A DNA stretch of 64,000 nucleotides from NCBI GenBank assembly GCA_965208905.1, contig OZ242365.1:128001-192000 (forward strand), read 5' to 3'. The translations under genes and the position numbers were made by a program. Positions 7,563 to 17,613 of the stretch are shown here, piece after piece (position 1 is the stretch's first letter; every line of letters begins with the position of its first letter). Below the pieces are notes generated by a model. It searched no databases. It saw only the letters and a program-made list of their open reading frames with translations, and had not been told where the DNA came from. The DNA comes from Nitrosopumilaceae archaeon (GTDB lineage Archaea; Thermoproteota; Nitrososphaeria; Nitrososphaerales; Nitrosopumilaceae).

Positions 7563-9005
7563 ATGGTGCAACAAGAACAAACTATGCAGACAGAGCATGA
7601 CCACCCTGTTGGCAAAAGCATTTTGAGTATTGACGTAACAGACTTTGGTCCGGTAACAAGAGGAGTTCTGAATCTGAAGCCACTCACGATATTGGTTGGC
7701 CCTAACGGTTGCGGCAAGTCTCACATTGCAACCCTTACTCACTCAGTCATAAATGCCGAGTACGATGCCCCAGTTGAAATGTTAACCCCTAATCCAAATG
7801 CGTCGTTTAACATAAACACTCTACTTGAGGAAGCTATACGCATACATAACGCACGTATGGCCGGTGCCAATTCCATTGATTCAAACATATATGAGTCATA
7901 TACTCGTCACAAATTCCAAAAACTACATGATATGCTCGCCGCTAATTTTGCCGGAGGGCACAAGTCTCTCATTCGTACAGGAAAAGAGCATTTCAAAATC
8001 ATATTGACATCAAAAGACCTCAGTGGAGTAGTAGAATGCACCGATACCATAACGAGCATACCTGCGAATAAAGCACGACTAAAAATTCATTTCAAAAGGC
8101 ACAAGGGTTCTATAAATGTCGATTTGGACAAAATGTTGCGCATAGACGGTGATACTGTACATATTGATATTCCTGATTTTCATGACCATAAACTGCTTGA
8201 GGCAGGCGCAGCATTGCCATTACTGACGGCTGCACTTCACATCAGGCAACCATCTTTGGGGCGCAGCATATATTTTCCCGCCGAACGAGGAGGTTTGACA
8301 TTGGCATACCGATCTCTGACACTACATTTTTACAATAATATTGGCTGGCCTAGCGTAAATTCCCTAGATTTGGACATGACAAACGTTTCAACCAACTTTT
8401 TAAGTCTACTACTTAAGCACGCTGGGGACAAAACAAAGTTTGCGGACTCTGTTGAAACCTTTGAAAAAAAGGCGCTAAATGGGTGTATCGTCGCACGTGA
8501 GGATGAAAAAAAATCAATAAATGTAGTTTTTGAGCAGTCTGGCGCCAGTTTTCCGCTCAGCAAGTCGGCCTCGTCAGTCAAGGATTTGGCCCTGTTTTTG
8601 CTGTATTTGAAACACCGAGCAAATAAGGGAGAGACCGTAATCCTGGAAGAACCCGAGACTACCATGCACCCGAGAAATCAGATAATGCTTGCCCGCTTTA
8701 TTGCCAAGATGGTTAATGCGGGATTGCGTGTGTTGATTACCACGCACAGTCAGTATTTTCTGGAGCAATTAAGTCATTGTGTAATGGCTGGCTCTAGTTC
8801 TGGAGAAGGTCCCATACCATTTCAGAATGATGAGATGTTAAACAACAATAGCGTAGCTGCATACGGATTCAAAAAAGATGGCGACGGTTACCGCATGTCG
8901 CCTATTGAGGTTGATGCTGAGGGTATTCCGCAGTATGAATTTATCGATGTAAGCGAAAGTTTGTACGACGAGCTCTTGAGATTGGAGCGGGCTGATGATT
9001 CGTGA
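7563..9005 (+). CDS. AAA_15/AAA_21-type ABC-like ATPase
   Basis: Walker A GPNGCGKS, 'FPAER', signature 'SASSVK', Walker B ILEEPE, H-loop ITTHS. Confidence 0.9.
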   Translation: MVQQEQTMQTEHDHPVGKSILSIDVTDFGPVTRGVLNLKPLTILVGPNGCGKSHIATLTHSVINAEYDAPVEMLTPNPNASFNINTLLEEAIRIHNARMAGANSIDSNIYESYTRHKFQKLHDMLAANFAGGHKSLIRTGKEHFKIILTSKDLSGVVECTDTITSIPANKARLKIHFKRHKGSINVDLDKMLRIDGDTVHIDIPDFHDHKLLEAGAALPLLTAALHIRQPSLGRSIYFPAERGGLTLAYRSLTLHFYNNIGWPSVNSLDLDMTNVSTNFLSLLLKHAGDKTKFADSVETFEKKALNGCIVAREDEKKSINVVFEQSGASFPLSKSASSVKDLALFLLYLKHRANKGETVILEEPETTMHPRNQIMLARFIAKMVNAGLRVLITTHSQYFLEQLSHCVMAGSSSGEGPIPFQNDEMLNNNSVAAYGFKKDGDGYRMSPIEVDAEGIPQYEFIDVSESLYDELLRLERADDS

Positions 9006-9501
9006 CATGTATAATGTACATGTCTCTGACATGTGTAAGGACAATAACAAGTGCAGCGTTATACTACCGGAGTCGTTCTTTTCCTTATGCGGCGAGGATG
9101 TCCGAGACATGTTGATAAGCGGTCGCAAACGGAAAAAGATGTGCGATTGCATAATTGTCGACAACCAAGAAAGCCGAATAACGTTGGCCGAGCTCAAATC
9201 CGGCAAACCCAATGCTGGAATGGTTAAACGTGCCAAAAGTCAACTAAAAACTGGTCTAACCATACTAGCAGAAATACTACAACAGGCCAACATACCACAA
9301 ATTAAGATGCAGTTGATATTACTCAGTAAACGACCTCGAAATGATTCGGTGCTTGTGTTATTGAAAAAACCAGTGATAGACTCTTGGCCAAAAACGCGTG
9401 TAATACGTGTTGACTGCGACTCTGCACTTCCGGACTCGTATACAGATGTGAGTGTGTCCGATGTGGCGAAAATGGGACTGTATAAATATCCGTTGAATTA
9501 G
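8995..9501 (+). CDS. Small putative PD-(D/E)xK nuclease partner of the ATPase
   Basis: 'CDCIIVD...LAELKSG...AKSQL'; overlaps the ATPase stop. Confidence 0.55.
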   Translation: MIRDMYNVHVSDMCKDNNKCSVILPESFFSLCGEDVRDMLISGRKRKKMCDCIIVDNQESRITLAELKSGKPNAGMVKRAKSQLKTGLTILAEILQQANIPQIKMQLILLSKRPRNDSVLVLLKKPVIDSWPKTRVIRVDCDSALPDSYTDVSVSDVAKMGLYKYPLN

Positions 9502-9811
9502 AGAGCGGATTTGCTCTTACGGAACTCCCATGTGTATGGGATGGTTAACCAATGCTGACTTTGTTGAGGTAATGCGTTCTGGTCCAAGTTAATTGTTGTA
9601 TGTTGGACATACTTTTTAATTTTAACTCAGGTTGCCCCAGTATACGATGGTATCGCCCAAACAATATCATGAATTTTGCCGGAAAGCGGAGGTCAAGGGG
9701 CCTTGAAGCCGCCCCTCACCTTGATGGGGCGGCAAGAGGTCCCGACTCTGGAAAAAATGCGCAGTCTCCCCCACATAATACAGGGCAGTATTCCCTTCCA
9801 CTGAAGGGTTT

Positions 9812-10860
9812 CTAATGCTGTATTGCCCGTGTGCGTATGCGTTGCATCTTGCGCTTTACAAGACCTTCATTCTTGGTTCTATACTCGGTATCATTGGTTA
9901 GCATATGCCAGATGATCTCAGTCATCGTTCTTGCGATAGCGACCTTTGCCTTCATCTTGCCTATTCTGACCGATAGTCTCTCGTATTTTGCCTTCAGACG
10001 AACATCATGTCGTACCGCGGTAGTGGCCGCTTCCACCATGGCGTTACGCAGTCACACAGAGCCAGTTTTTGTTATGTGGCCATCTTTTTTGACATCCCCA
10101 CTATTCCGGTGTGACGGTACCAGGCCCGCATATGAGGCCATCTTTTCGGCGCTGGGAAACCTCTTGTGGTCTGAATCTCGGCCAGTACAGTGATGGCTGT
10201 TATGTGTCCTATTCCTGGTATGGTCATAATACGGCGCGCCCTTGCATCATCCAGTGCCATCCGGGCAATTGTATTTTCCAGAGATGTTAGTTCCTTGTTT
10301 ATAGTGCAAATTACACTCCGGTGCATATTTACCAATTGCCGGTCTATGTCACGCATGTTTATTTCATCAGCATTAATAGTGCAGAGTGTTTCTGGTTTGC
10401 GTGGGTATTTGCAGATGATGGCATGTATGCGGTTTCCACGCGCTACACGGGCACGCTACAGATCCAACCTGCCGCGCACAAGGGCACGCATGTCCCGATA
10501 GTAATTGCTTGGCACATACGACTCGGATATCATGTCGGACCGAAGTAGGTCCGCCAACACCTCTGAATCAATCTTGTCGTCCTTAAGCTTTGCCTGCGCT
10601 ATGACCTTGGTATTTCTTGGGTTTGCCATCTTTATCTCAATACCTGCTTCGGCCAACATATCATATGGCAGCACCCAATAGTTTCCTGTAGATTCGCAGA
10701 CTGCCTTGGCAGGCCAGTATTTCTTACTAACCATTTGTGTAAAATCAGATATTTCTTTGGTGTTATTTGCAAACGACACTCGATGTATGACACTGCGTTC
10801 TTTCCCCTTTATGGTTGCAACACACTTTTTCAAATGAACGTCAATTCCGATGTAATACAT
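9812..10860 (-). pseudogene. IS110 DEDD recombinase/transposase with two frameshifts
   Basis: YIGIDVH, CESTGNYW, KDDKIDS, TIPGIG, KAKVAIAR spread over three frames. Confidence 0.9.
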
Positions 10861-10884
10861 TTTTCTATTTTCTCACCTCCTTTA

Positions 10885-11054
10885 CAATAAATTGAACCCG
10901 ACCAGCGGAAGGCTCCCATTCGCCCTCAATGTGGCAGTCTACCATCCGCATACCTTGAGTCAATCTGTTCAACGCCTTTATGCATGGCAAGCTCAACACG
11001 ACTCTCAGGCCCAACAGGGTAGATGGAATGCTCAGGCTAATAATGCCCACACAT
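10885..11054 (-). ncRNA. Putative IS110 bridge RNA (copy 1)
   Basis: Closing stem 11005-11014/10892-10901; two arms, each an internal loop capped by a GCC..GGC hairpin; loop 10963-10971 identical to flank 11058-11066. Confidence 0.7.
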
Positions 11055-12144
11055 AGTATCTGTTCAGGACGGTCCGGTGGGCCAACGGCCTGTTCTGCCC
11101 ACGTTGCGGCGGGGTTGATATCGTCCGATACTGCCGATACCGGGGACACGTCCGGAGGTACACATGCAAGGGCTGCCGCCGGACCTTCAACGACAAGACT
11201 GGAACTATTCTTCACTACCGGCACGTCCGGATGGGAGACTGGATGCTGGCGGTCTGGATGTTCCTGTGCGGGCCGCCCAACGGGATATCGATAAACTACA
11301 TTGCAACTTCGATAGGCCGCGCCTACGGGGCCGTCTACCAGATGTACCGCGACATCATGCGGAAGGTGGGCGAGCTGCCGGAGGGCAAGCTGTCCGGGAC
11401 GGGAGAGACCGATAAGGGATACACCAGAGCCGGCTCCAAGGGGGTGTCACCGGGCAGCAACGGCGAGAACCGGACTGTCCCCAGCCGCCGCCGACTGCCC
11501 CGCGGTCCGGGCAGGGGCACCTTCGAGAAGAATGTACCGATGGTCACCATCTACCATCAGCGGGCCGCAGAAGGCGAACCGGATGTGACAATCTTCGAGG
11601 TTCCCCGTGGCGACGGCAAAACGCTGGCCGAAATGGTGGCCGAAAAGTTCGAACCGGGCTCGACGGTGATCACCGACGAGCATCCCGCCTACAAGAGCCT
11701 TGGGGAGATGGGATATGGCCACTTGGCCATCAACCACAGCGAGGGCGAGTACGCATCAGGCGAGCACAACGAGTTTCATACCAACAACTACGAGTGCCGT
11801 ATAGGTCTGCTGTATATGGTGGCTGAAAAAACACCGCGGCGTGAGCAAATGGCATCTGGAACGATACGTCAAGTCTTTCCAGTTTGTTCACAACCACAGG
11901 CACTATGGCATCAATGGTAGGTTCGTGGCTGCGCTAGCCGCCATCCTTGACCAATATGCCGGGAGACAAGCCTGACCAAGATGTTTTTCGCGCCGTAATT
12001 ATTTTCCGCAGCATCCGTCCTGCAGGCGCGTGTCGTCTGACCGGTTCATGCTTTTTCTGCACTGAACGCCAACTCCGCCGCCCTATGGGCGTAATTGCCA
12101 CCCCCAACATTAGATAGATGAGCGTTCTCATTTCACCTCCTTTT

Positions 12145-12314
12145 TAGTGGATAGTCGGACCTGACCATGGTCGACTTCCATCCGCCCTCGAAGGGGCTGA
12201 AGCTTTTCACGTACCTTGAGCCATTCTGTTAAACGCCCTCGGAGGGGCCAGTTCCTGCCGACTCTCAGGTCCAACAGGAAGAGTGCAGGTATCGCCGATA
12301 TAACAACGACACAT
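12145..12314 (-). ncRNA. Second, divergent bridge-RNA-like module with no transposase downstream
   Basis: Colinear homologue of 10872-11054 with pairing-preserving stem changes and different loops; followed by GGAGGTGA and ATG at 12131. Confidence 0.65.
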
Positions 12315-12319
12315 AACTT

Positions 12320-12373
12320 CTGGTAAGTTATCGGTAGATGTTCCTTGCTGGTAAGTGTCGGTAGATCGTCCTT
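12320..12373. repeat. Imperfect tandem repeat, 2 x ~27 bp (CTGGTAAGT..TCGGTAGAT..TCCTT)
   Basis: Units 12320-12347 and 12348-12373. Confidence 0.8.
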
Positions 12374-12581
12374 AGAGGTGTTTTGTATGGGGGCTTAGCC
12401 CTGTGGGACAGGCCTGGGCTGGTAACTTATCCGCGCTTGAAAAGCCCATGTTAGAATTACAATATTCTCCAAAAAAGCCGTGATTTTTACATTTCAAGTC
12501 CGCACCACCCACCAACAACCACAATGCGCAAATACGGAATCTTGGAACAACCTTAAAACGTACCTCGGGAAAAACAATACC

Positions 12582-15038
12582 GTGAAGCCATTCCACAAGA
12601 TCCTCGAAGTCAGACCTGATGTACAGGACGGCACATTAGACCAATCTGCATATGCGGCCAATCTGGGTGATGTAGTGTCTGATATAGACAAACCTGCCGC
12701 CAAAGAATACCGCAACCCTGTACTATTCAGAGAGATGACATATGAGACTGAAGGAATGCGCAAGGCATTAGATCACATTCGTGTACGGCTACAAGACGGC
12801 AAGGGTAATGGATTAAGACAGCTAGAGACAAGTTTTGGTGGTGGAAAGACGCATGCAATGATTGCAATGTATCATAAATGCAAGGACTGGGATACTACAC
12901 CTGTTGTCATAGACGGCCAGTCCCTGCGCACAACATCCACGTTATGGGGCGAGATAGAACGGCAGTTAGACGGTAATATACAAAAGATGGCCGGCCAGGT
13001 TGCACCTTCAGGAGACCAAATCTATGAGTTGCTACACAACAGGAAGAAGCCCATACTCATACTGATAGATGAGATCTTCAACTATGTGGCAGGCGCGGCT
13101 GCCATACCAATAGGCAATTCAGACTTGGCTGCACAGACCATAATATTCATGCAGAGGTTATACGGCCAGCTAGGTAGTCTGCAAAACGTATGCTTGGTGA
13201 TGTCTCTATCCAAACGTGATGATGTACTTGGTACTGATACCGGTAATCGCACTGCAAAAATACAAAATGAGTACTACTCAAAACTACAAAAGATAGCCGG
13301 TAGGCATCACCAGCTAGACACCATATCTGAGGATAACGACATATCACACATAATACGTCGCAGACTATTCAGTACAAGTGAAGAGACCATACAGTATGGT
13401 GCAAAGGACACTATACAGTGGTGTATAGAACAGATGGTGGAGGGTGAATCACTACTAGGTGATGACATAGAGAAGTACAAGGAGAGATTTGCCAACACAT
13501 ACCCATTCACGCCAGATGTAATCGACACACTACACAAAAAATGGGCATCCTACCCGACATTTCAGAGGACTCGCGGGGTACTGCGACTACTCTCACTAGT
13601 AGTGCACTCGTTGTTGGAGTCCAAGAGGTCTTGGATTGCACCAAGCGATATTGACTTGTCCGTACCTGAGATACGCCAGGAATTGTTAAAGCATACCGGC
13701 GATAACACCGAGAGTGTGATATCTACCGACATAGTGGGAAGCGATGCATTATCCAGAAAGGCAGATGAAGAGATAGGTGTTCGTTGCGCAGCAAGCATAT
13801 TCATGTATTCATTTCCGCCCAGGACTGGTCGTGGTGCGACATATGAGGAGGTAAAGCGCTCCACCTTCACGTATAACATAACACACTCGTTTATTGGAGA
13901 TACAGTGGGTAAACTACTGCGGCGTTGTTTCTATCTTGATGAGACAGATGACAAGATGTTGTATTTCGACATAAAGCCAAACATAAACCACATGATAGAC
14001 CAGGCCAAGCGGAATGTATCTGATGGAACAGTACATGATGAGGAGCGAAATAGATTGGATGGAGCTATAGATGGCGGGATGTTCGGTGACATACACATAT
14101 GGCCTGATGAGACCGAGGCATACAACATACCAGACAGGCCGGTTTTACAGTTGGTAATATGCAAGAAGGATGATCCGGAGTGGTGTGCAAAGGTCGTGAA
14201 CGGCACTAACAAGTCGCGCCGCATAAACATGAATGGCCTGATATTTCTGCTTCCCAGCAATGGGATTATGCTAAGTGATCTGTTGCGACTGTATCTAGGC
14301 GTGAAGTTTGTCAAAGGGAGTTTGTCTGCAGAGTACAAGGCTTCCACGCGCTCCTACCTGAACTCGGAGATAAAGCGCGCAAAGGACGGAATAGGTGATG
14401 AGTTGTGCAAAAAGTATTCTGTGGTGTATGTTCCGGCGGAGGGCGGTAAGGTCAGAAAGATTCGCGACTATATGTTCAATCCCGCCACTGACAGCTTAAA
14501 GTCGTTGGATAGTCTGATGTGGGAGCGCCTCACCAAGGAAGACCATGTGGCCGCCAGAATAGCCCCGGACATCGCAGCGCGATACGGGAAGGATGCAGAC
14601 GGCGCGTACGAGTCGATGATACGCACGCCGGGCAGCATAATGCCCGCATCCTTTGAGGTTGTACGGGAGGCATTCGAGTCTGATGAACCAGAAGTACCCG
14701 AGACTCCGGACACGCCTACGCATGGAGGGCGTCCATGGGGAGGTTCAACGTGGGATGAGCCAATACAGGATGAGCCAATACAGGAACCAGAAAAGACGTA
14801 TGAGCGCGTACTGTATACTGATGTGGTCGACGCGGCAAGGTTGACCGGCATGCGCTGGATGCTTCGGTCGCCGCAGGAACTATCTCTTAAGGGATTTGTC
14901 TGCAACATAAGCCAGCGCCCTGATGGAATGTACGACATACGCGTGGAGATGGGAGGTGCGGTCCCGGACAGTGTGGTGTCCAACATAAGACCCACCAACC
15001 GGGGAAAATTGGAGAAGGATGACGGCTGGGACGAATAG
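12582..15038 (+). CDS. DUF499 AAA+ ATPase (BrxC-related)
   Basis: 'LETSFGGGKTHAMIAMYH', 'LILIDE', 'YPF', 'FQRTRGVLRLL'; GTG start ~30 nt after a TTAAAA box. Confidence 0.9.
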   Translation: MKPFHKILEVRPDVQDGTLDQSAYAANLGDVVSDIDKPAAKEYRNPVLFREMTYETEGMRKALDHIRVRLQDGKGNGLRQLETSFGGGKTHAMIAMYHKCKDWDTTPVVIDGQSLRTTSTLWGEIERQLDGNIQKMAGQVAPSGDQIYELLHNRKKPILILIDEIFNYVAGAAAIPIGNSDLAAQTIIFMQRLYGQLGSLQNVCLVMSLSKRDDVLGTDTGNRTAKIQNEYYSKLQKIAGRHHQLDTISEDNDISHIIRRRLFSTSEETIQYGAKDTIQWCIEQMVEGESLLGDDIEKYKERFANTYPFTPDVIDTLHKKWASYPTFQRTRGVLRLLSLVVHSLLESKRSWIAPSDIDLSVPEIRQELLKHTGDNTESVISTDIVGSDALSRKADEEIGVRCAASIFMYSFPPRTGRGATYEEVKRSTFTYNITHSFIGDTVGKLLRRCFYLDETDDKMLYFDIKPNINHMIDQAKRNVSDGTVHDEERNRLDGAIDGGMFGDIHIWPDETEAYNIPDRPVLQLVICKKDDPEWCAKVVNGTNKSRRINMNGLIFLLPSNGIMLSDLLRLYLGVKFVKGSLSAEYKASTRSYLNSEIKRAKDGIGDELCKKYSVVYVPAEGGKVRKIRDYMFNPATDSLKSLDSLMWERLTKEDHVAARIAPDIAARYGKDADGAYESMIRTPGSIMPASFEVVREAFESDEPEVPETPDTPTHGGRPWGGSTWDEPIQDEPIQEPEKTYERVLYTDVVDAARLTGMRWMLRSPQELSLKGFVCNISQRPDGMYDIRVEMGGAVPDSVVSNIRPTNRGKLEKDDGWDE

Positions 15039-17613
15039 GCTCATTGGTACGATAATACCAATAAATGATATATCAAAGGGTGGAGCCGCAGAGAAGAAGA
15101 GGGGTCGCGGTAGAATCAACAACTTACATCGGTGGTGGGCTTCGCGGCCTACTACAGTATCCCGCATCACAGCATATGCAGCACTGGTTGATCCGCCAAT
15201 AGAAGAACATAAGAAAATGATACTAGACATGTGCGACTATGATAATACAACCAAACCCGAACGGATAGCAGTACGGGATGCCGCGCGCAAGCGAATCAAA
15301 GAAAAGTGGGAAAATCCTCCAAAGGTGCTGGATCCGTTCGGCGGCACGGGGGCGCTGCCGTTCAGCGCCGCGTGGCTGGGCTGTGAATCACATTCTATGG
15401 ATTACAATCCTGTTGCTGTTATATTACAAAAGTGCGCGTTGGAGTATCCGACCAGGTACGGGCATGAACTCAAGGAAGATGTCATGCGGTATGCGAAACA
15501 AGTTGGCGAGCTGTTGAAGGAGCGTACCACGCCTTATTATCCGGGCGAGTCGCACTACGGGTATATCTGGTGCCGGACAATCCGGTGTAAGTGCGGGTGT
15601 ATAATCCCACTTATACACGACTACACACTCTCAAAAAGTTATGGTATGCATTTCCGGCCCGCTGCGCGAGACGGCGAGGTTGAATTCACCATACACGACA
15701 AGGGTGAGATACCTCCCGGTCAGGTGGGAGGTAGGCGGGCCATATGTGTAAACTGTGGACACACGTACACCAACATAGAGATACGAGACATGGTATGGGA
15801 CCACGGCTCGGAGATGATGTGTGTTGCCACATCCGTACCAAAGCGAGGGAGGAGTAAGTCGTATAGGTCGGTTGATGCGGATGACCGGACACTGTATGAG
15901 TCATGCGCCGCGCAGCTGAAAGAGTGTCGTGCGCAGTTTCGCGAGAAATATGACATAGACCCAATACCTGACATCGTCATCCCCATGCCAGACGGCCTGG
16001 AGTATAGGCCGGGTGGACCGGTATGGCATGTCTTGCGCATAGCTACGTTTGGCCACACCCGTTGGTCGCAACTCTTCAACAACCGGCAGCTACTGTGCAT
16101 GGTGATACTATTGGATATACTGCGCGAGATCGAGGCGGACGTAATAAAGAATCACGGCATGGAGCGCGGCATTGCCATAATGACTTACCTTGGGCTAATG
16201 ATGGACAAGACTCTGGAAAGGTACTGTAGATTGTCACCTTGGCTAACAGATAGTGGCAGAGTCACACATTGCTTCTCCCAACAAAATCTACGTAACACGT
16301 GGGACTATCCGGAGGTTGCCCCCCACATATTATGGGGGCAGTCAATCACCCATATTTCGGACGGCATGAACGCGGCCCTCTCCAACAACACCGTATGCGA
16401 CGTGCGACGGGCCTCGGCCACCAACCTACCATATGATGACTGTACATTCGATGCCGTATGCACGGACCCGCCGTATTATGATGCCATGCAGTACTCATAC
16501 ACGTCCGACTTCTATGTGTGGCTGAAGCGCTCCATTGGACATTTACACCCTGAATTATTCCGCGGCACGCATACTCCAAAGAAAAACGAGGTGATTGAGA
16601 CAGAAAGCCTGGCCATGCATATAACACCGGAATGTAAGGTGCGAGACAGTGATGGCTATCAACAGCTAATGTCACGGTCACTACACGAGATGCATCGTGT
16701 GTTGAAACCAGATGGTATACTCACATTAGTATACGCGCATAAGACCACTGAGGGTTGGGAGACCCTCATCAAATCAATATTAGAGGCGGGATTCACGATA
16801 ACAGCGGCCTGGCCGGTCGATACTGAGAGTTCATCCCGCATGAAATCCCGTGGTACGGCAGCCCTTGCCTCATCAATATACATGGTGGGCCGTAAGTGGG
16901 AGCGCAAACCGGTAGCCGAGTGGCGCACAGTACAGTTAGAGTTCCGCGAGCATGTGTGCGCCATGCTGGACAGGCTCATCAAGGCAAACATAACGGGCTC
17001 GGACTTTTACATTGCGGCCATCGGGTCCGCTCTGGAGATATTCGGTAAGTATAAGGCGGTGCGAAGAAGTAATGGCGAGCAAATCACTATAGACGAAATA
17101 CTTGATGAGATACGCACCCTGTGCTCGGAGTTCATAGTAAAGATGCTCACACAGGGTGGTGGCGGAAACATAGATCCGCTAACCAAGCTCTACATAACGT
17201 GGCGGTGGGCGTACGGCAATCAAAAAATACACTTTGATGTTGCGCGAAAGTTGTTCACCGGTGTGGGACGAGACATGGACGAATATTCGGGCAAGGGTGG
17301 TATAATACGGCGCAAAGGCAGTGAAGTAAAGCTGCTGACGCATCAGGAGCGCGATGAAGAGATACGTATCAAGAGCCGCATAGATGCCATACATCAGGCC
17401 ATCCGCTACTGGCACGCCAACAAGCTTGACGACATGAAGGAGATATTGCGCGAGACTGGCAATATAGGCGATGTGTTCAATGCCGTCTGCAAGGCGATTG
17501 CAAGGGCCGGGAATGGAGAGACAGATGAAGCGAGGGAGATCGACCAGTTCCGTTCAGGGCGAGAAGAAGAGATAAACGAACCTGTGGGGCAGCTAAGGAT
17601 GACTGATTACTGA
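15019..17613 (+). CDS. DUF1156 adenine DNA methyltransferase with Zn-finger insert
   Basis: 'LHRWWASRP', LDPFGGTG, TDPPYYD, 'YAHK...WETLI', 'ALASSI'. Confidence 0.9.
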   Translation: MTAGTNRLIGTIIPINDISKGGAAEKKRGRGRINNLHRWWASRPTTVSRITAYAALVDPPIEEHKKMILDMCDYDNTTKPERIAVRDAARKRIKEKWENPPKVLDPFGGTGALPFSAAWLGCESHSMDYNPVAVILQKCALEYPTRYGHELKEDVMRYAKQVGELLKERTTPYYPGESHYGYIWCRTIRCKCGCIIPLIHDYTLSKSYGMHFRPAARDGEVEFTIHDKGEIPPGQVGGRRAICVNCGHTYTNIEIRDMVWDHGSEMMCVATSVPKRGRSKSYRSVDADDRTLYESCAAQLKECRAQFREKYDIDPIPDIVIPMPDGLEYRPGGPVWHVLRIATFGHTRWSQLFNNRQLLCMVILLDILREIEADVIKNHGMERGIAIMTYLGLMMDKTLERYCRLSPWLTDSGRVTHCFSQQNLRNTWDYPEVAPHILWGQSITHISDGMNAALSNNTVCDVRRASATNLPYDDCTFDAVCTDPPYYDAMQYSYTSDFYVWLKRSIGHLHPELFRGTHTPKKNEVIETESLAMHITPECKVRDSDGYQQLMSRSLHEMHRVLKPDGILTLVYAHKTTEGWETLIKSILEAGFTITAAWPVDTESSSRMKSRGTAALASSIYMVGRKWERKPVAEWRTVQLEFREHVCAMLDRLIKANITGSDFYIAAIGSALEIFGKYKAVRRSNGEQITIDEILDEIRTLCSEFIVKMLTQGGGGNIDPLTKLYITWRWAYGNQKIHFDVARKLFTGVGRDMDEYSGKGGIIRRKGSEVKLLTHQERDEEIRIKSRIDAIHQAIRYWHANKLDDMKEILRETGNIGDVFNAVCKAIARAGNGETDEAREIDQFRSGREEEINEPVGQLRMTDY

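What the first reader, a model, noticed from the sequence alone, without database searches (positions are those of the whole stretch)
10872..12326. Two divergent bridge-RNA-like modules whose guide loops covary with their own insertion flanks
Seen: 10872-11054 and 12133-12314 are colinear homologues. On the minus strand each has a closing stem with pairing-preserving changes (TTGGGCCTGA/TCGGGTTCAA vs GTTGGACCTGA/TCAGGTCCGAC), two arms with internal loops capped by GCC..GGC hairpins, then GGAGGTGA and ATG. Both elements end in ACACAT plus a 3-nt core (AGT vs AAC, plus strand). The copy-1 loop ATCTGTTCA (10963-10971) equals the adjacent flank (11058-11066) at 9/9. The copy-2 loop TTCTGTTAA (12224-12232) matches its flank TTCTGGTAA (12318-12326) at 8/9 in the same register, and both loop differences track the flank differences. 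Known: IS110 recombinases use bridge/seek RNAs with target- and donor-binding loops (IS621, IS1111). Inference: an archaeal programmable bridge-RNA family. The matching guide sits on the 3' side of the loop, which appears to differ from the IS621 layout. Matches for the second target half and the donor are weak (GGGAGCCT vs junction GGGAGACT).
Basis: partly seen in the sequence, partly recalled or inferred. Interest (0 to 1): 0.88.

Follow-up and report, generated by a model that had tools for sequence, protein, structure and literature searches.

The report
Archaeal insertion-sequence bridge RNA modules
The two modules are the guide-RNA genes of two decayed IS110/IS1111-type jumping genes in an ammonia-oxidising archaeon; they belong to a large archaeal family whose RNA loops track each copy's insertion site, which makes them a well-supported new member of the known bridge/seek-RNA recombinases, not a new kind of system.

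Summary
On the minus strand, 10891-11016 and 12154-12276 are homologous two-arm RNA modules. Each lies in the left end of an IS110/IS1111-family insertion sequence.

Eight left-end copies occur in this 2.2 Mb archaeal genome. In 6 of the 7 that keep the loop, the loop 9-mer equals its own left junction 9/9, with four different sequences.

A covariance model found the module in 31 of 65 related genomes. Over 114 non-redundant copies, the five variable guide bases match the flank 5/5 in 54, against 1.1% for swapped guides.

- The other side of the same loop predicts the right flank.
- The second loop matches the element's own two ends.

The guide order is the reverse of IS621. It equals the order published for IS1111-type seekRNAs. 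The ends also carry IS1111-type subterminal inverted repeats with 7/3-nt extensions. The RNA gene nevertheless lies upstream of the recombinase gene.

Both window copies are fossils. Copy 1 has a broken recombinase gene and a chimeric right junction. Copy 2 is truncated by an IS1595-like element.

No RNA expression or recombinase binding was shown.

Verdict: real, a new member of a known kind.

The parts
9521..9524 (-). Right flank TTCC (minus strand) next to copy 1's right end. It is the right target half predicted by copy 2's loop, not by copy 1's.
   Evidence: Right junction reads ATGGG-AG-TTCC. The reverse complement of copy 2's 5' loop side is C-AG-TTCC. For copy 1 it is A-AG-CTC.
9525..9526 (-). 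Right copy of the core dinucleotide (AG on minus, CT on plus).
   Evidence: AG is common to both junctions and to both 3' loop sides.
9527..9535 (-). Right end of copy 1: 3-nt extension GGG (9527-9529) and right subterminal inverted repeat ACACAT (9530-9535).
   Evidence: Inverted-repeat analysis. Exact copy of the donor-loop 7-mer ATGGGAG spans 9525-9531.
9812..10860 (-). Recombinase pseudogene of copy 1 (DEDD_Tnp_IS110 plus Transposase_20). It carries an in-frame stop, a frameshift and a TGA where relatives have W.
   Evidence: Pfam E 5.2e-21 and 6.2e-07. ORF pieces. One TAG inside the match. A related RNA-library contig has an extra C behind 10173.
10873..10880 (-). GGAGGTGA ribosome-binding site. 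The ATG lies at 10858-10860.
10891..11016 (-). Bridge/seek-RNA module, copy 1 (closing stem 11005-11014 with 10892-10901).
   Evidence: Model R1, 123.5 bits. Structure counts. Coordinates.
10989..10999 (-). Target loop, 5' side (GUGUUGAGCUU). It is complementary to core plus right target half (AG-CTC).
   Evidence: Uninterrupted IS1595 copies read TGAAC-AG-CTCGGC at this site. Family test: 30 of 47 at 4/6 or better, against 12% permuted.
10962..10973 (-). Target loop, 3' side (G-UUGAAC-AG-AU-U). It has the same sense as left target half, core and the first 2 nt of the element.
   Evidence: 9/9 with 11058-11066. Family test: 54 of 114 at 5/5, against 1.1%.
10936..10944 (-). Donor loop, 5' side (UGGUAGACU). 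It is complementary to part of the left-end extension.
   Evidence: Common substring of 4 or more in 14 of 31 distinct pairs, against 7.5% permuted. Copy 1 itself matches only TAC.
10910..10921 (-). Donor loop, 3' side (G-AAUGGG-AG-CC-U). It has the same sense as right end plus core.
   Evidence: ATGGGAG equals the right end at 9525-9531. The copy-2 family has ATGGAAG in both places.
11017..11059 (-). Left-end leader of copy 1: extension ATACT (11055-11059), left subterminal repeat ATGTGT (11049-11054), and an A/T-rich block about 25 nt before the module.
11060..11061 (-). Left copy of the core (AG on minus).
   Evidence: Homology to uninterrupted IS1595 copies starts here. A DNA contig's loose end lies at 11060.
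11062..11066 (-). Left target half TGAAC (minus), inside the IS1595 fragment.
11062..12123 (+). IS1595-like element fragment. Its 5' part is missing. It was the target of copy 1 and the disruptor of copy 2.
   Evidence: PF12762, E 6e-15. Other genomic copies. The same element end abuts another truncated left end elsewhere in the genome.
12124..12319 (-). Copy 2: a solo left end cut 8 nt into the recombinase ORF (ATGAGAAC). Extension AAGTT at 12315-12319, subterminal repeat at 12309-12314.
12154..12276 (-). Bridge/seek-RNA module, copy 2. Target loop 5' side 12249-12259 and 3' side 12223-12234. Donor loop 5' side 12198-12205 and 3' side 12172-12183.
   Evidence: R1, 104.5 bits. Coordinates.
12320..12326 (-). 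Core AG (12320-12321) and left target half TTACC (12322-12326) of copy 2.
   Evidence: The three sister copies sit behind the same TTACC-AG at unrelated loci.

Best explanation
What it is
Both modules are the bridge RNA (seekRNA) genes in the left ends of two IS110/IS1111-family insertion sequences of an ammonia-oxidising archaeon.

The RNA (minus-strand sense)
- It folds into a closing stem that carries two arms.
- Each arm is a stem, an internal loop and a capping hairpin.

Arm 1, the target-binding loop
- The 3' side (G-N6-AG-N2-U) has the sequence of the left flank (5 effective nt) plus the AG core. It would therefore pair with the bottom strand.
- The next 2 nt of that side equal the first 2 nt of the element, like a handshake guide.
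- The 5' side is complementary to AG plus 3-7 nt of the right flank on the top strand.

Arm 2, the donor-binding loop
- The 3' side (AAUGGG-AG) has the sequence of the right end plus core.
- The 5' side is complementary to the 5-nt left-end extension.

Inferred action
The DEDD/Ser recombinase encoded directly downstream would use this RNA to align the circular element's joined ends with the target. It would then exchange strands at the AG/CT core.

Shown and inferred
- Shown here: homology; structure covariation; all four guide-DNA correspondences; the core; the subterminal repeats; and homology of a relative's intact recombinase to IS621.
- Inferred from the published IS621/IS1111 mechanism: that the RNA is made, that it binds the recombinase, and that the reaction goes through a circular intermediate.

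State of the window copies
- Copy 2 inserted at ..CTTACC-AG-TTCC..
- An IS1595-like element then cut it.
- Copy 1 inserted into that IS1595 at TGAAC-AG-CTC.
- A deletion between the two right junctions then fused copy 1's right end to copy 2's right flank.
For: Recombinase
- Pfam PF01548 and PF02371 on the downstream ORF pieces.
- An intact 372-aa relative (L126) matches the solved IS621 transposase (8wt6, E 1.5e-18) and ISCro4 (E 2.3e-18). The aligned motifs are GID, (C/I)E(S/A)T, D..D and SG.

Structure
- 85.1% of cells paired, against 28-45% when partners are slid. 12 of 27 pairs have compensatory changes (18 sequences).
- 81.2% against 28-44%, and 18 of 27 pairs, on 87 distinct rows.

Own genome
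- Six copies have loop 9-mer = left junction at 9/9, using four different sequences (TGAACAGAT, GAGTTAGAT, TAATTAGAT, and TTACCAGAA three times at unrelated loci). Copy 2 is 8/9.

Family spread
- Recombinase relatives in 67 of 401 genomes of the class.
- RNA model R1 hits 31 of 65 of those genomes.

Left guide at fixed register (114 non-redundant pairs)
- 5/5 in 54 and 4/5 in 21. Swapped guides give 1.1% and 4.2% over 12,608 pairings.
- The signal is confined to loop positions 2-6 and 10.
- 27 of 49 distinct guides have at least one perfect flank.

Right guide
- 47 non-redundant right junctions, taken from the 50 of 128 rows where one was found.
- At least 4/6 in 30 (12% permuted). At least 5/6 in 17 (2.4% permuted).
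- Contiguous run of 4 or more from the core in 20 (1.7% permuted).

Donor loop
- The 3'-side 7-mer recurs exactly at the right end in three co-varying versions: ATGGGAG, ATGGAAG and ATGGATG.
- The 5' side against the left extension shares 4 or more nt in 14 of 31 distinct pairs, against 7.5% permuted.

Empty site
- Other IS1595 copies read TGAAC-AG-CTCGGC where copy 1 sits, as both halves of copy 1's target loop predict.

Ends
- Perfect inverted-repeat runs of 7-11 bp in 27 of 34 distinct end pairs.
- Offsets are 5 (+2 core) on the left and 3 on the right in 22.
Against: - No evidence that the RNA is made. RNA-library contigs that match the stretch cover only recombinase-gene parts, and they come from a 90-99% similar relative.
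- Minimum-free-energy folds of the two window copies are not unusually stable (z -0.57 and -1.75).
- The closing stem is only 61-69% paired in the alignments.
- 39 of 114 non-redundant copies match their flank at 3/5 or fewer. Many of these have truncated or non-canonical left ends: 25 of the 114 lack AG at the register.
- 17 of 47 right flanks match at 3/6 or fewer, and a 1-nt bulge must be allowed.
- The 2-nt handshake-like match of the donor loop to the right flank is modest: 2/2 in 12 of 47, against 10%.
- Related copies are not independent, so the permutation figures overstate significance.
- No intact recombinase gene of this family was seen in this genome. Copy 1 is broken, and the three full copy-2-type elements share a 1-nt insertion.
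Confidence: 0.9

Rival explanations
1. The module is an IS110-group (IS621-like) bridge RNA in the strict sense. That would mean left guide on the 5' side, right guide plus handshake on the 3' side, CT core on the RNA-sense strand, and no real subterminal repeats.
For: - The RNA gene lies upstream of the recombinase gene, as in the IS110 group.
- The recombinase matches IS621 in the PDB.
Against: - The order of the guides is reversed. The guide with the left flank's own sequence is on the 3' side. The guide complementary to the right flank is on the 5' side. In IS621 the LTG is at nt 50-58 and the RTG at 77-80.
- The core reads AG on the RNA-sense strand.
- The subterminal repeats are 7-11 bp.
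Confidence: 0.04
2. The conserved structure is only a 5' leader that controls translation of the recombinase. The loop-flank identities are then chance, or by-products of a target preference set by the protein.
For: - The module ends 11 nt before the GGAGGTGA ribosome-binding site and is part of the 5' untranslated region.
- The folds are not unusually stable.
Against: - Protein-set specificity does not explain why the loop sequence changes in step with the flank across 49 guide variants.
- It does not explain why the other loop side tracks the right flank.
- It does not explain why the second loop tracks the element's own ends.
Confidence: 0.03
3. The guides act as single-stranded DNA rather than RNA, as the subterminal guide sequences of IS200/IS605 elements do (recalled knowledge).
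For: Nothing here shows a transcript.
Against: - The recombinase is homologous to IS621 and ISCro4. IS621 is shown in the papers read to work with a bridge RNA.
- The helices hold many G-U pairs that would be A-C mismatches on the other strand. These do not exclude single-stranded DNA of the same strand.
- The module directly precedes a ribosome-binding site in the sense orientation.
Confidence: 0.03

Closest known systems
IS1111-group elements and their seekRNAs (ISEc11, ISKpn4, ISPa11; Siddiquee et al. 2024, PMC11187229; passages read)
   Same: - The RNA segment complementary to the top strand precedes the bottom-strand match.
- Subterminal inverted repeats are present.
- The terminal extensions are asymmetric: 7 nt on the left, counting one copy of the duplicated bases, and 3 nt on the right.
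- Each lineage has its own target, and natural reprogramming occurs.
   Different: - Here the non-coding RNA region lies upstream of the recombinase gene, not downstream. The paper notes a few such exceptions (ISMtsp17), but the passages I read do not describe their RNA.
- The repeats are 7-11 bp, against the usual 11-13.
- The hosts are ammonia-oxidising archaea.
- Both loops are simple internal loops in two arms under one closing stem.
- Relatedness of the recombinase to IS1111's was not tested.
IS621 bridge RNA (IS110 group; Durrant et al. 2024, PMC11208160; Hiraizumi et al. 2024, PMC11208158; passages read)
   Same: - Left-end-encoded RNA with one target-binding and one donor-binding internal loop.
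- Each loop carries a left and a right guide that overlap on a 2-nt core.
- Two extra bases next to one guide match the partner DNA after exchange, like handshake guides.
- The recombinase is homologous (E 1.5e-18).
   Different: - The guide order within each loop is reversed.
- The long guide is on the 3' side.
- The core is AG on the RNA-sense strand, i.e. CT on the opposite strand.
- Real subterminal repeats are present.
- No match to any Rfam 15 family.
ISEc21 seekRNA (IS110 type; PMC11187229)
   Same: Upstream non-coding region that gives the guide RNA.
   Different: ISEc21 has the bottom-strand match 5' of the top-strand match, which is the opposite of this family.

Membership tests
IS110/IS1111 superfamily of RNA-guided DEDD recombinase elements | [quoted passage not shown] | tested here: met
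   Window ORF pieces score E 5.2e-21 and 6.2e-07. An intact 372-aa relative matches IS621 (8wt6) at E 1.5e-18.
IS110/IS1111 superfamily of RNA-guided DEDD recombinase elements | Catalytic acidic residues and serine conserved | tested here: met
   The alignment to 8wt6 keeps GID, E(S/A)T, D..D and the SG serine motif. S241 is named in the paper passages. The numbering of the acidic residues is recalled, not checked. Tested on a relative, because the window gene is broken.
IS110/IS1111 superfamily of RNA-guided DEDD recombinase elements | Structured non-coding RNA region whose loop covaries with both target flanks | tested here: met
   Left: 54 of 114 at 5/5, against 1.1%. Right: 30 of 47 at 4/6 or better, against 12%. 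Stem covariation.
IS110/IS1111 superfamily of RNA-guided DEDD recombinase elements | Second loop matching the element's own ends (donor) | tested here: met
   The 3'-side 7-mer equals the right end in 50 of 128 rows, in three covarying versions. The 5' side against the left extension matches in 14 of 31 pairs, against 7.5%.
IS110/IS1111 superfamily of RNA-guided DEDD recombinase elements | RNA is transcribed, binds the recombinase and is required for movement | not testable with these tools
   RNA-library contigs gave no information on the module.
IS110 group (IS621-like) | Non-coding RNA region upstream of the recombinase gene | tested here: met
IS110 group (IS621-like) | Bottom-strand (left) guide 5' of top-strand (right) guide | tested here: not met
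   The order is reversed in all aligned modules (against papers read).
IS110 group (IS621-like) | Subterminal repeats absent or only 2-3 bp | tested here: not met
   Perfect runs of 7-11 bp in 27 of 34 distinct end pairs.
IS1111 group | Subterminal inverted repeats (usually 11-13 bp per PMC11187229; 7-17 bp per PMC11208160) | tested here: met
   7-11 bp perfect runs in 27 of 34 pairs. The window's copy 1 has only 6.
IS1111 group | Terminal extensions of 7 bp on the left and 3 bp on the right | tested here: met
   Left 5 nt plus the 2-nt core, right 3 nt, in 22 of 34 pairs. In 8 more the repeat simply runs 2 bp further out.
IS1111 group | Top-strand complement precedes bottom-strand match in the RNA | tested here: met
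   against
IS1111 group | Long non-coding region downstream of the recombinase gene | tested here: not met
   The guide module is upstream. The copy-1 and copy-2 types also have 280-450 nt after the stop codon whose content I did not analyse.
IS1111 group | Recombinase related over its full length to that of IS1111 | not tested
   No labelled IS1111 reference was at hand. The plasmid tblastn gave only generic names.
Any Rfam 15 family | Covariance-model match | tested here: not met
   0 matches at E up to 1 in 9000-13000.

The most novel reading that the evidence does not exclude
This may be a distinct lineage, widespread in ammonia-oxidising archaea, that is a circular permutation of the IS1111 plan. 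It would have IS1111-type ends, core polarity and guide order, with the bridge RNA moved in front of the recombinase gene.

The RNA might be driven by a TATA-like box inside the left end: an invariant A/T block 23-27 nt before the module. Guide RNA would then be made from integrated copies, not only from the circular form.

That could promote junction-to-junction deletions like the chimeric right junction seen in the window.
Probability: 0.25. Interest if true: 0.55.

Novelty: new member of a known kind. Interest (0 to 1): 0.4.

Why it matters
- It gives a mechanistic annotation for a repeat family found in 31 of 65 related genomes searched. Dozens of naturally reprogrammed guides come with their matched insertion sites.
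- It shows that the IS1111-type guide order and ends can go with an upstream RNA gene. This bears on how the RNA moved between element ends during evolution.
- As far as I recall (no call checked this), ammonia-oxidising archaea have no established genetic system. A native RNA-guided recombinase with readable targeting rules (5 nt, AG, then 3-7 nt) is a candidate tool for them.
- It also explains the local genome scar: three nested insertion sequences and a core-to-core deletion.

Tried and rejected
Searches that gave nothing useful
- Rfam 15 scan of 9000-13000: no match.
- Single-sequence folds: not more stable than shuffles.
- The search for related loci in genome contigs with the copy-2-type recombinase: only bacterial relatives at 35% identity or less. 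114 of 187 candidates were confirmed and 80 kept. None was used further.
- tblastn against plasmids, meant to place the recombinase with named IS1111 or IS110 members: 1793 records, all under 60% identity, with generic product names. Uninformative.
- Literature search for bridge RNA or seekRNA together with Nitrososphaer* or Thaumarchaeo*: among the 25 listed of 1,200 papers holding at least 2 of the 5 terms, none held both kinds of term.
- Supplementary tables of the bridge-RNA and seekRNA papers are closed. They list the orthologues those authors scanned and may already include this family.

Ideas I dropped
- My first idea was that ACT/GCT after a 'TG' spacer in the loop mirrors the 3 nt after the flank 9-mer. 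Those bases belong to the arm-1 stem (GACUC/GGCUC).
- Flank BLAST for empty sites of the copy-2-type insertions found only a rearranged paralogue at one site. It was not a clean empty site.
- The module-only copy at genome position 1544668-1544866 may be an internal-deletion derivative. Its right end could not be identified convincingly.

RNA evidence
- Three metatranscriptome runs hold 5-7% of the sampled words.
- Their contigs lie on 9766-10768 and 9521-9553 only, at 90-99% likeness. They therefore come from a relative.
- Nothing was laid on the modules, and this says nothing either way.

Not run or not available
- No structure prediction or complex prediction was run.

Unpublished genome
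- The genome marked unpublished (G282, locus L108) was fetched and its upstream stretch was printed.
- It was left out of the alignment, the model and the later genome search.
Full report
What is there

On the minus strand, 10860 down to about 9812 encodes a broken IS110-family recombinase. Pfam gives PF01548 at E 5.2e-21 and PF02371 at E 6.2e-07. The gene has one in-frame stop, one frameshift and a TGA at a conserved W position. The 200 nt in front of it (11059-10861) are 'copy 1'.

'Copy 2' (12319-12124) is a homologous left end (A1). It stops 8 nt into its ORF, where the end of an IS1595-like element abuts it. That element is the fragment 11062-12123 on the plus strand (PF12762, E 6e-15).

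The genome is archaeal. SSU rRNA matches RF01959 at 1444 bits, the best of its clan. It carries archaeal amoA at 386.7 bits.

Checking the observation

The genome holds eight left-end copies in two types.
- Four are like copy 1. One of them keeps only 77 nt and lacks the loop.
- Four are like copy 2. Three of them are full elements of about 1.67 kb, at unrelated loci.

Read on the RNA-sense strand, the loop 9-mer equals the junction 9-mer in six copies, using four different sequences: TGAACAGAT, GAGTTAGAT, TAATTAGAT, and TTACCAGAA three times. Copy 2 itself is 8/9, because its loop has drifted from the TTACCAGAA of its sisters. Each 9-mer occurs 15-29 times in the genome, so the coincidence of register is what counts.

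Anatomy and the core

I compared left and right junctions.
- Copy-2-type elements: left CTTACC-AG-AAGCT-ATGTGT.., right ..ACACAT-GGA-AG-TTCC, then unrelated sequence.
- Copy 1: left TGAAC-AG-ATACT-ATGTGT.., right ..ACACAT-GGG-AG-TTCC.

Only AG is common to both junctions. Uninterrupted IS1595 copies read TGAAC-AG-CTCGGC at copy 1's site. A DNA contig from another IS1595 copy joins the window sequence exactly at 11060. The core is therefore AG (CT on the plus strand), not the 3 nt next to ACACAT.

The RNA has a closing stem and two arms (coordinates).
- Arm 1, 3' loop side: G-N6-AG-N2-U.
- Arm 1, 5' side, read as reverse complement: A-AG-CTC.. in copy 1, which matches IS1595. In the copy-2 type it reads C-AG-TTCC.., which matches all three right flanks.
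- Arm 2, 3' side: (G/A)AATGGG-AG-NN-U, or GGATGGA-AG in the copy-2 type. This is the right end plus core.
- Arm 2, 5' side: complementary to the 5-nt left extension. The copy-2 type is clearest, GAAGCT.

Family-wide tests

Recombinase relatives occur in 67 of 401 genomes of the class.

From 18 modules I built an alignment (A2) and a structure.
- 85.1% of cells are paired, against 28-45% when partners are slid.
- 12 of 27 pairs show compensatory change.
- 0 of 500 shuffles reach the covariation score.

The resulting model R1 finds 7 modules in this genome. It hits 31 of 65 recombinase-positive relatives (26 of 48, 4 of 8 and 1 of 1 genomes in three families). I left the one unpublished genome out of that search.

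I fetched 120 hit regions and realigned 129 modules. On 87 distinct rows the structure keeps 81.2% pairing, against 28-44% slid, with 18 of 27 compensatory pairs. The closing stem is weaker at 60.6%.

Left guide. I used one fixed register for all copies, loop position k against flank position -52+k from the module start. No copy was selected on the outcome. There were 114 non-redundant pairs.
- The five variable positions match 5/5 in 54, 4/5 in 21 and 3/5 or fewer in 39.
- Swapped guides give 1.1% and 4.2% (12,608 pairings).
- The signal is confined to loop positions 2-6: 0.65-0.79 own, 0.28-0.33 swapped. Position 10 also shows it: 0.73 against 0.47. Positions 0-1 show none.
- 27 of 49 distinct guides have at least one perfect flank.
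- 25 of the 114 lack AG at the register. These have truncated or different left ends.

Right guide. An exact copy of the donor-loop 7-mer more than 600 nt downstream marks a right end in 50 of 128 rows, giving 47 non-redundant junctions.
- The first 6 flank bases match the reverse complement of the 5' loop side at 4/6 or better in 30 (12% permuted).
- They match at 5/6 or better in 17 (2.4% permuted).
- A contiguous run of 4 or more from the core occurs in 20 (1.7% permuted).
- Three offsets had to be allowed, because some subfamilies show a 1-nt bulge.

Donor loop.
- The 5' side against the left extension shares 4 or more nt in 14 of 31 distinct pairs, against 7.5% permuted.
- The 2 nt after AG in the donor loop match the right flank 2/2 in 12 of 47, against 10%. 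This is modest.

A subclade in another family uses TG instead of AG in both loops and at both junctions. More distant relatives that R1 does not detect show the same loop-flank identity by eye (L121, L122). Related copies are not independent, so these figures overstate formal significance.

What it works like

The recombinase of an intact relative aligns to the solved IS621 and ISCro4 transposases (E 1.5e-18 and 2.3e-18), with the acidic and serine motifs kept. The logic is that of published bridge RNAs: two loops, four guides, a shared 2-nt core and handshake-like bases (passages read).

The order differs from IS621. There the left guide, which pairs with the bottom strand, is on the 5' side (nt 50-58). 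The right guide plus handshake is on the 3' side (nt 77-82). Here the left-flank guide is on the 3' side.

The seekRNA paper states that IS1111-type RNAs have the top-strand complement first and that the IS110-type ISEc21 has the reverse. It also states that IS1111 elements carry subterminal repeats with extensions of 7 bp on the left and 3 bp on the right, and that their non-coding region is usually downstream, with a few exceptions.

I measured the ends of this family.
- Perfect repeat runs of 7-11 bp occur in 27 of 34 distinct end pairs.
- Offsets are 5 nt (+2 core) on the left and 3 nt on the right in 22.
- In 8 more the repeat runs 2 bp further out.

The family is therefore IS1111-like in its ends and guide order, and IS110-like in where the RNA gene sits. 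An equivalent description is that, read on the other strand, the core is CT and the 3' guide with its 2 extra bases corresponds to IS621's right guide plus handshake. In that reading the genes are inverted relative to the site polarity. This last point is inference.

History of the window locus (inference)

1. Copy 2 inserted at ..CTTACC-AG-TTCC..
2. An IS1595-like element cut it just after its start codon.
3. Copy 1 inserted into that IS1595.
4. Copy 1's right junction now carries TTCC, the right half-site of copy 2, not the CTC that its own loop and IS1595 predict.

A deletion between the two right junctions at the core explains this. It also explains the loss of IS1595's 5' part and of copy 2's gene.

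Limits

- No transcript or RNA-protein binding is shown.
- The folds are not unusually stable.
- No intact recombinase gene of this family was seen in this genome. The three full copy-2-type elements share a 1-nt insertion relative to a same-genus intact ORF.
- Placement relative to IS1111 by recombinase phylogeny was not tested.
- Supplementary tables of the two key papers, which may already list this family, were closed.

Verdict

This is a real, well-supported bridge/seek RNA family of archaeal IS110/IS1111-type elements. The window holds two fossil copies. It is a new member of a known kind, with an unusual mix of IS1111-type and IS110-type features.

Noticed in passing
window 9521-12326: Three nested insertion sequences. 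Copy 2's left end is cut by an IS1595-like element, which in turn carries copy 1. Copy 1's right end is fused at the AG core to copy 2's right flank (TTCC). This implies a deletion between two right junctions that removed IS1595's 5' part and copy 2's gene.
   Followed up: partly
G000:C1 1374843-1376515, 1695414-1697086, 1908829-1907160 (L095, L006/L007, L005): The three full copy-2-type elements share one extra A (CCAAAG against CCAAG in a same-genus intact 369-aa ORF). This splits the recombinase gene after ..GGITK. One of the three is only 93% identical in protein to the other two. The frameshift may therefore be old, tolerated, or spread by conversion.
   Followed up: partly
L100 / L209 (G203:C3 about 936963-937261): One element copy is inserted exactly into the guide-coding DNA (ACCGGC-AG) of another copy's target loop. 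Only the left half-site matches.
   Followed up: no
L239-L245 (G197, G301): A subclade in another family uses TG instead of AG as core. The change appears in both loops and at both junctions.
   Followed up: partly
window 11017-11048 and the 45-nt leaders of 55 distinct relatives: An invariant A/T-rich block (TTATA / TTTTT / TTATC) lies 23-27 nt before the module's first base. It could be an archaeal TATA box inside the left end, or the loop of a 5' hairpin.
   Followed up: no
window 10173: A 1004-nt contig from a metatranscriptome library (59 differences, about 94% alike) covers 9766-10768. It has an extra C behind 10173, in the region where copy 1's reading frame shifts.
   Followed up: no
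G000:C1 1544668-1544866 (L002): A module-only copy with an intact two-arm RNA gene and a perfect 9/9 flank match has no recombinase gene behind it. It may be a miniature derivative.
   Followed up: partly
window 7563-9501 and 12480-17613: The insertion sequences lie between genes that look like a defence island. These are an AAA_15/AAA_21 ATPase (E 1e-18), a weak sub-threshold RE_TdeIII match, a DUF499 protein (E 7.5e-30), and a long 864-aa ORF that I did not examine.
   Followed up: no
window 12318-12372: Copy 2's left flank holds two tandem ~27-nt units, each ending in CTTACCAG (minus strand). Two of the three sister copies have a similar ATCTCAC..(A/G)TTACCAG motif in their flanks, so the target seems to be a repeated sequence.
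   Followed up: no
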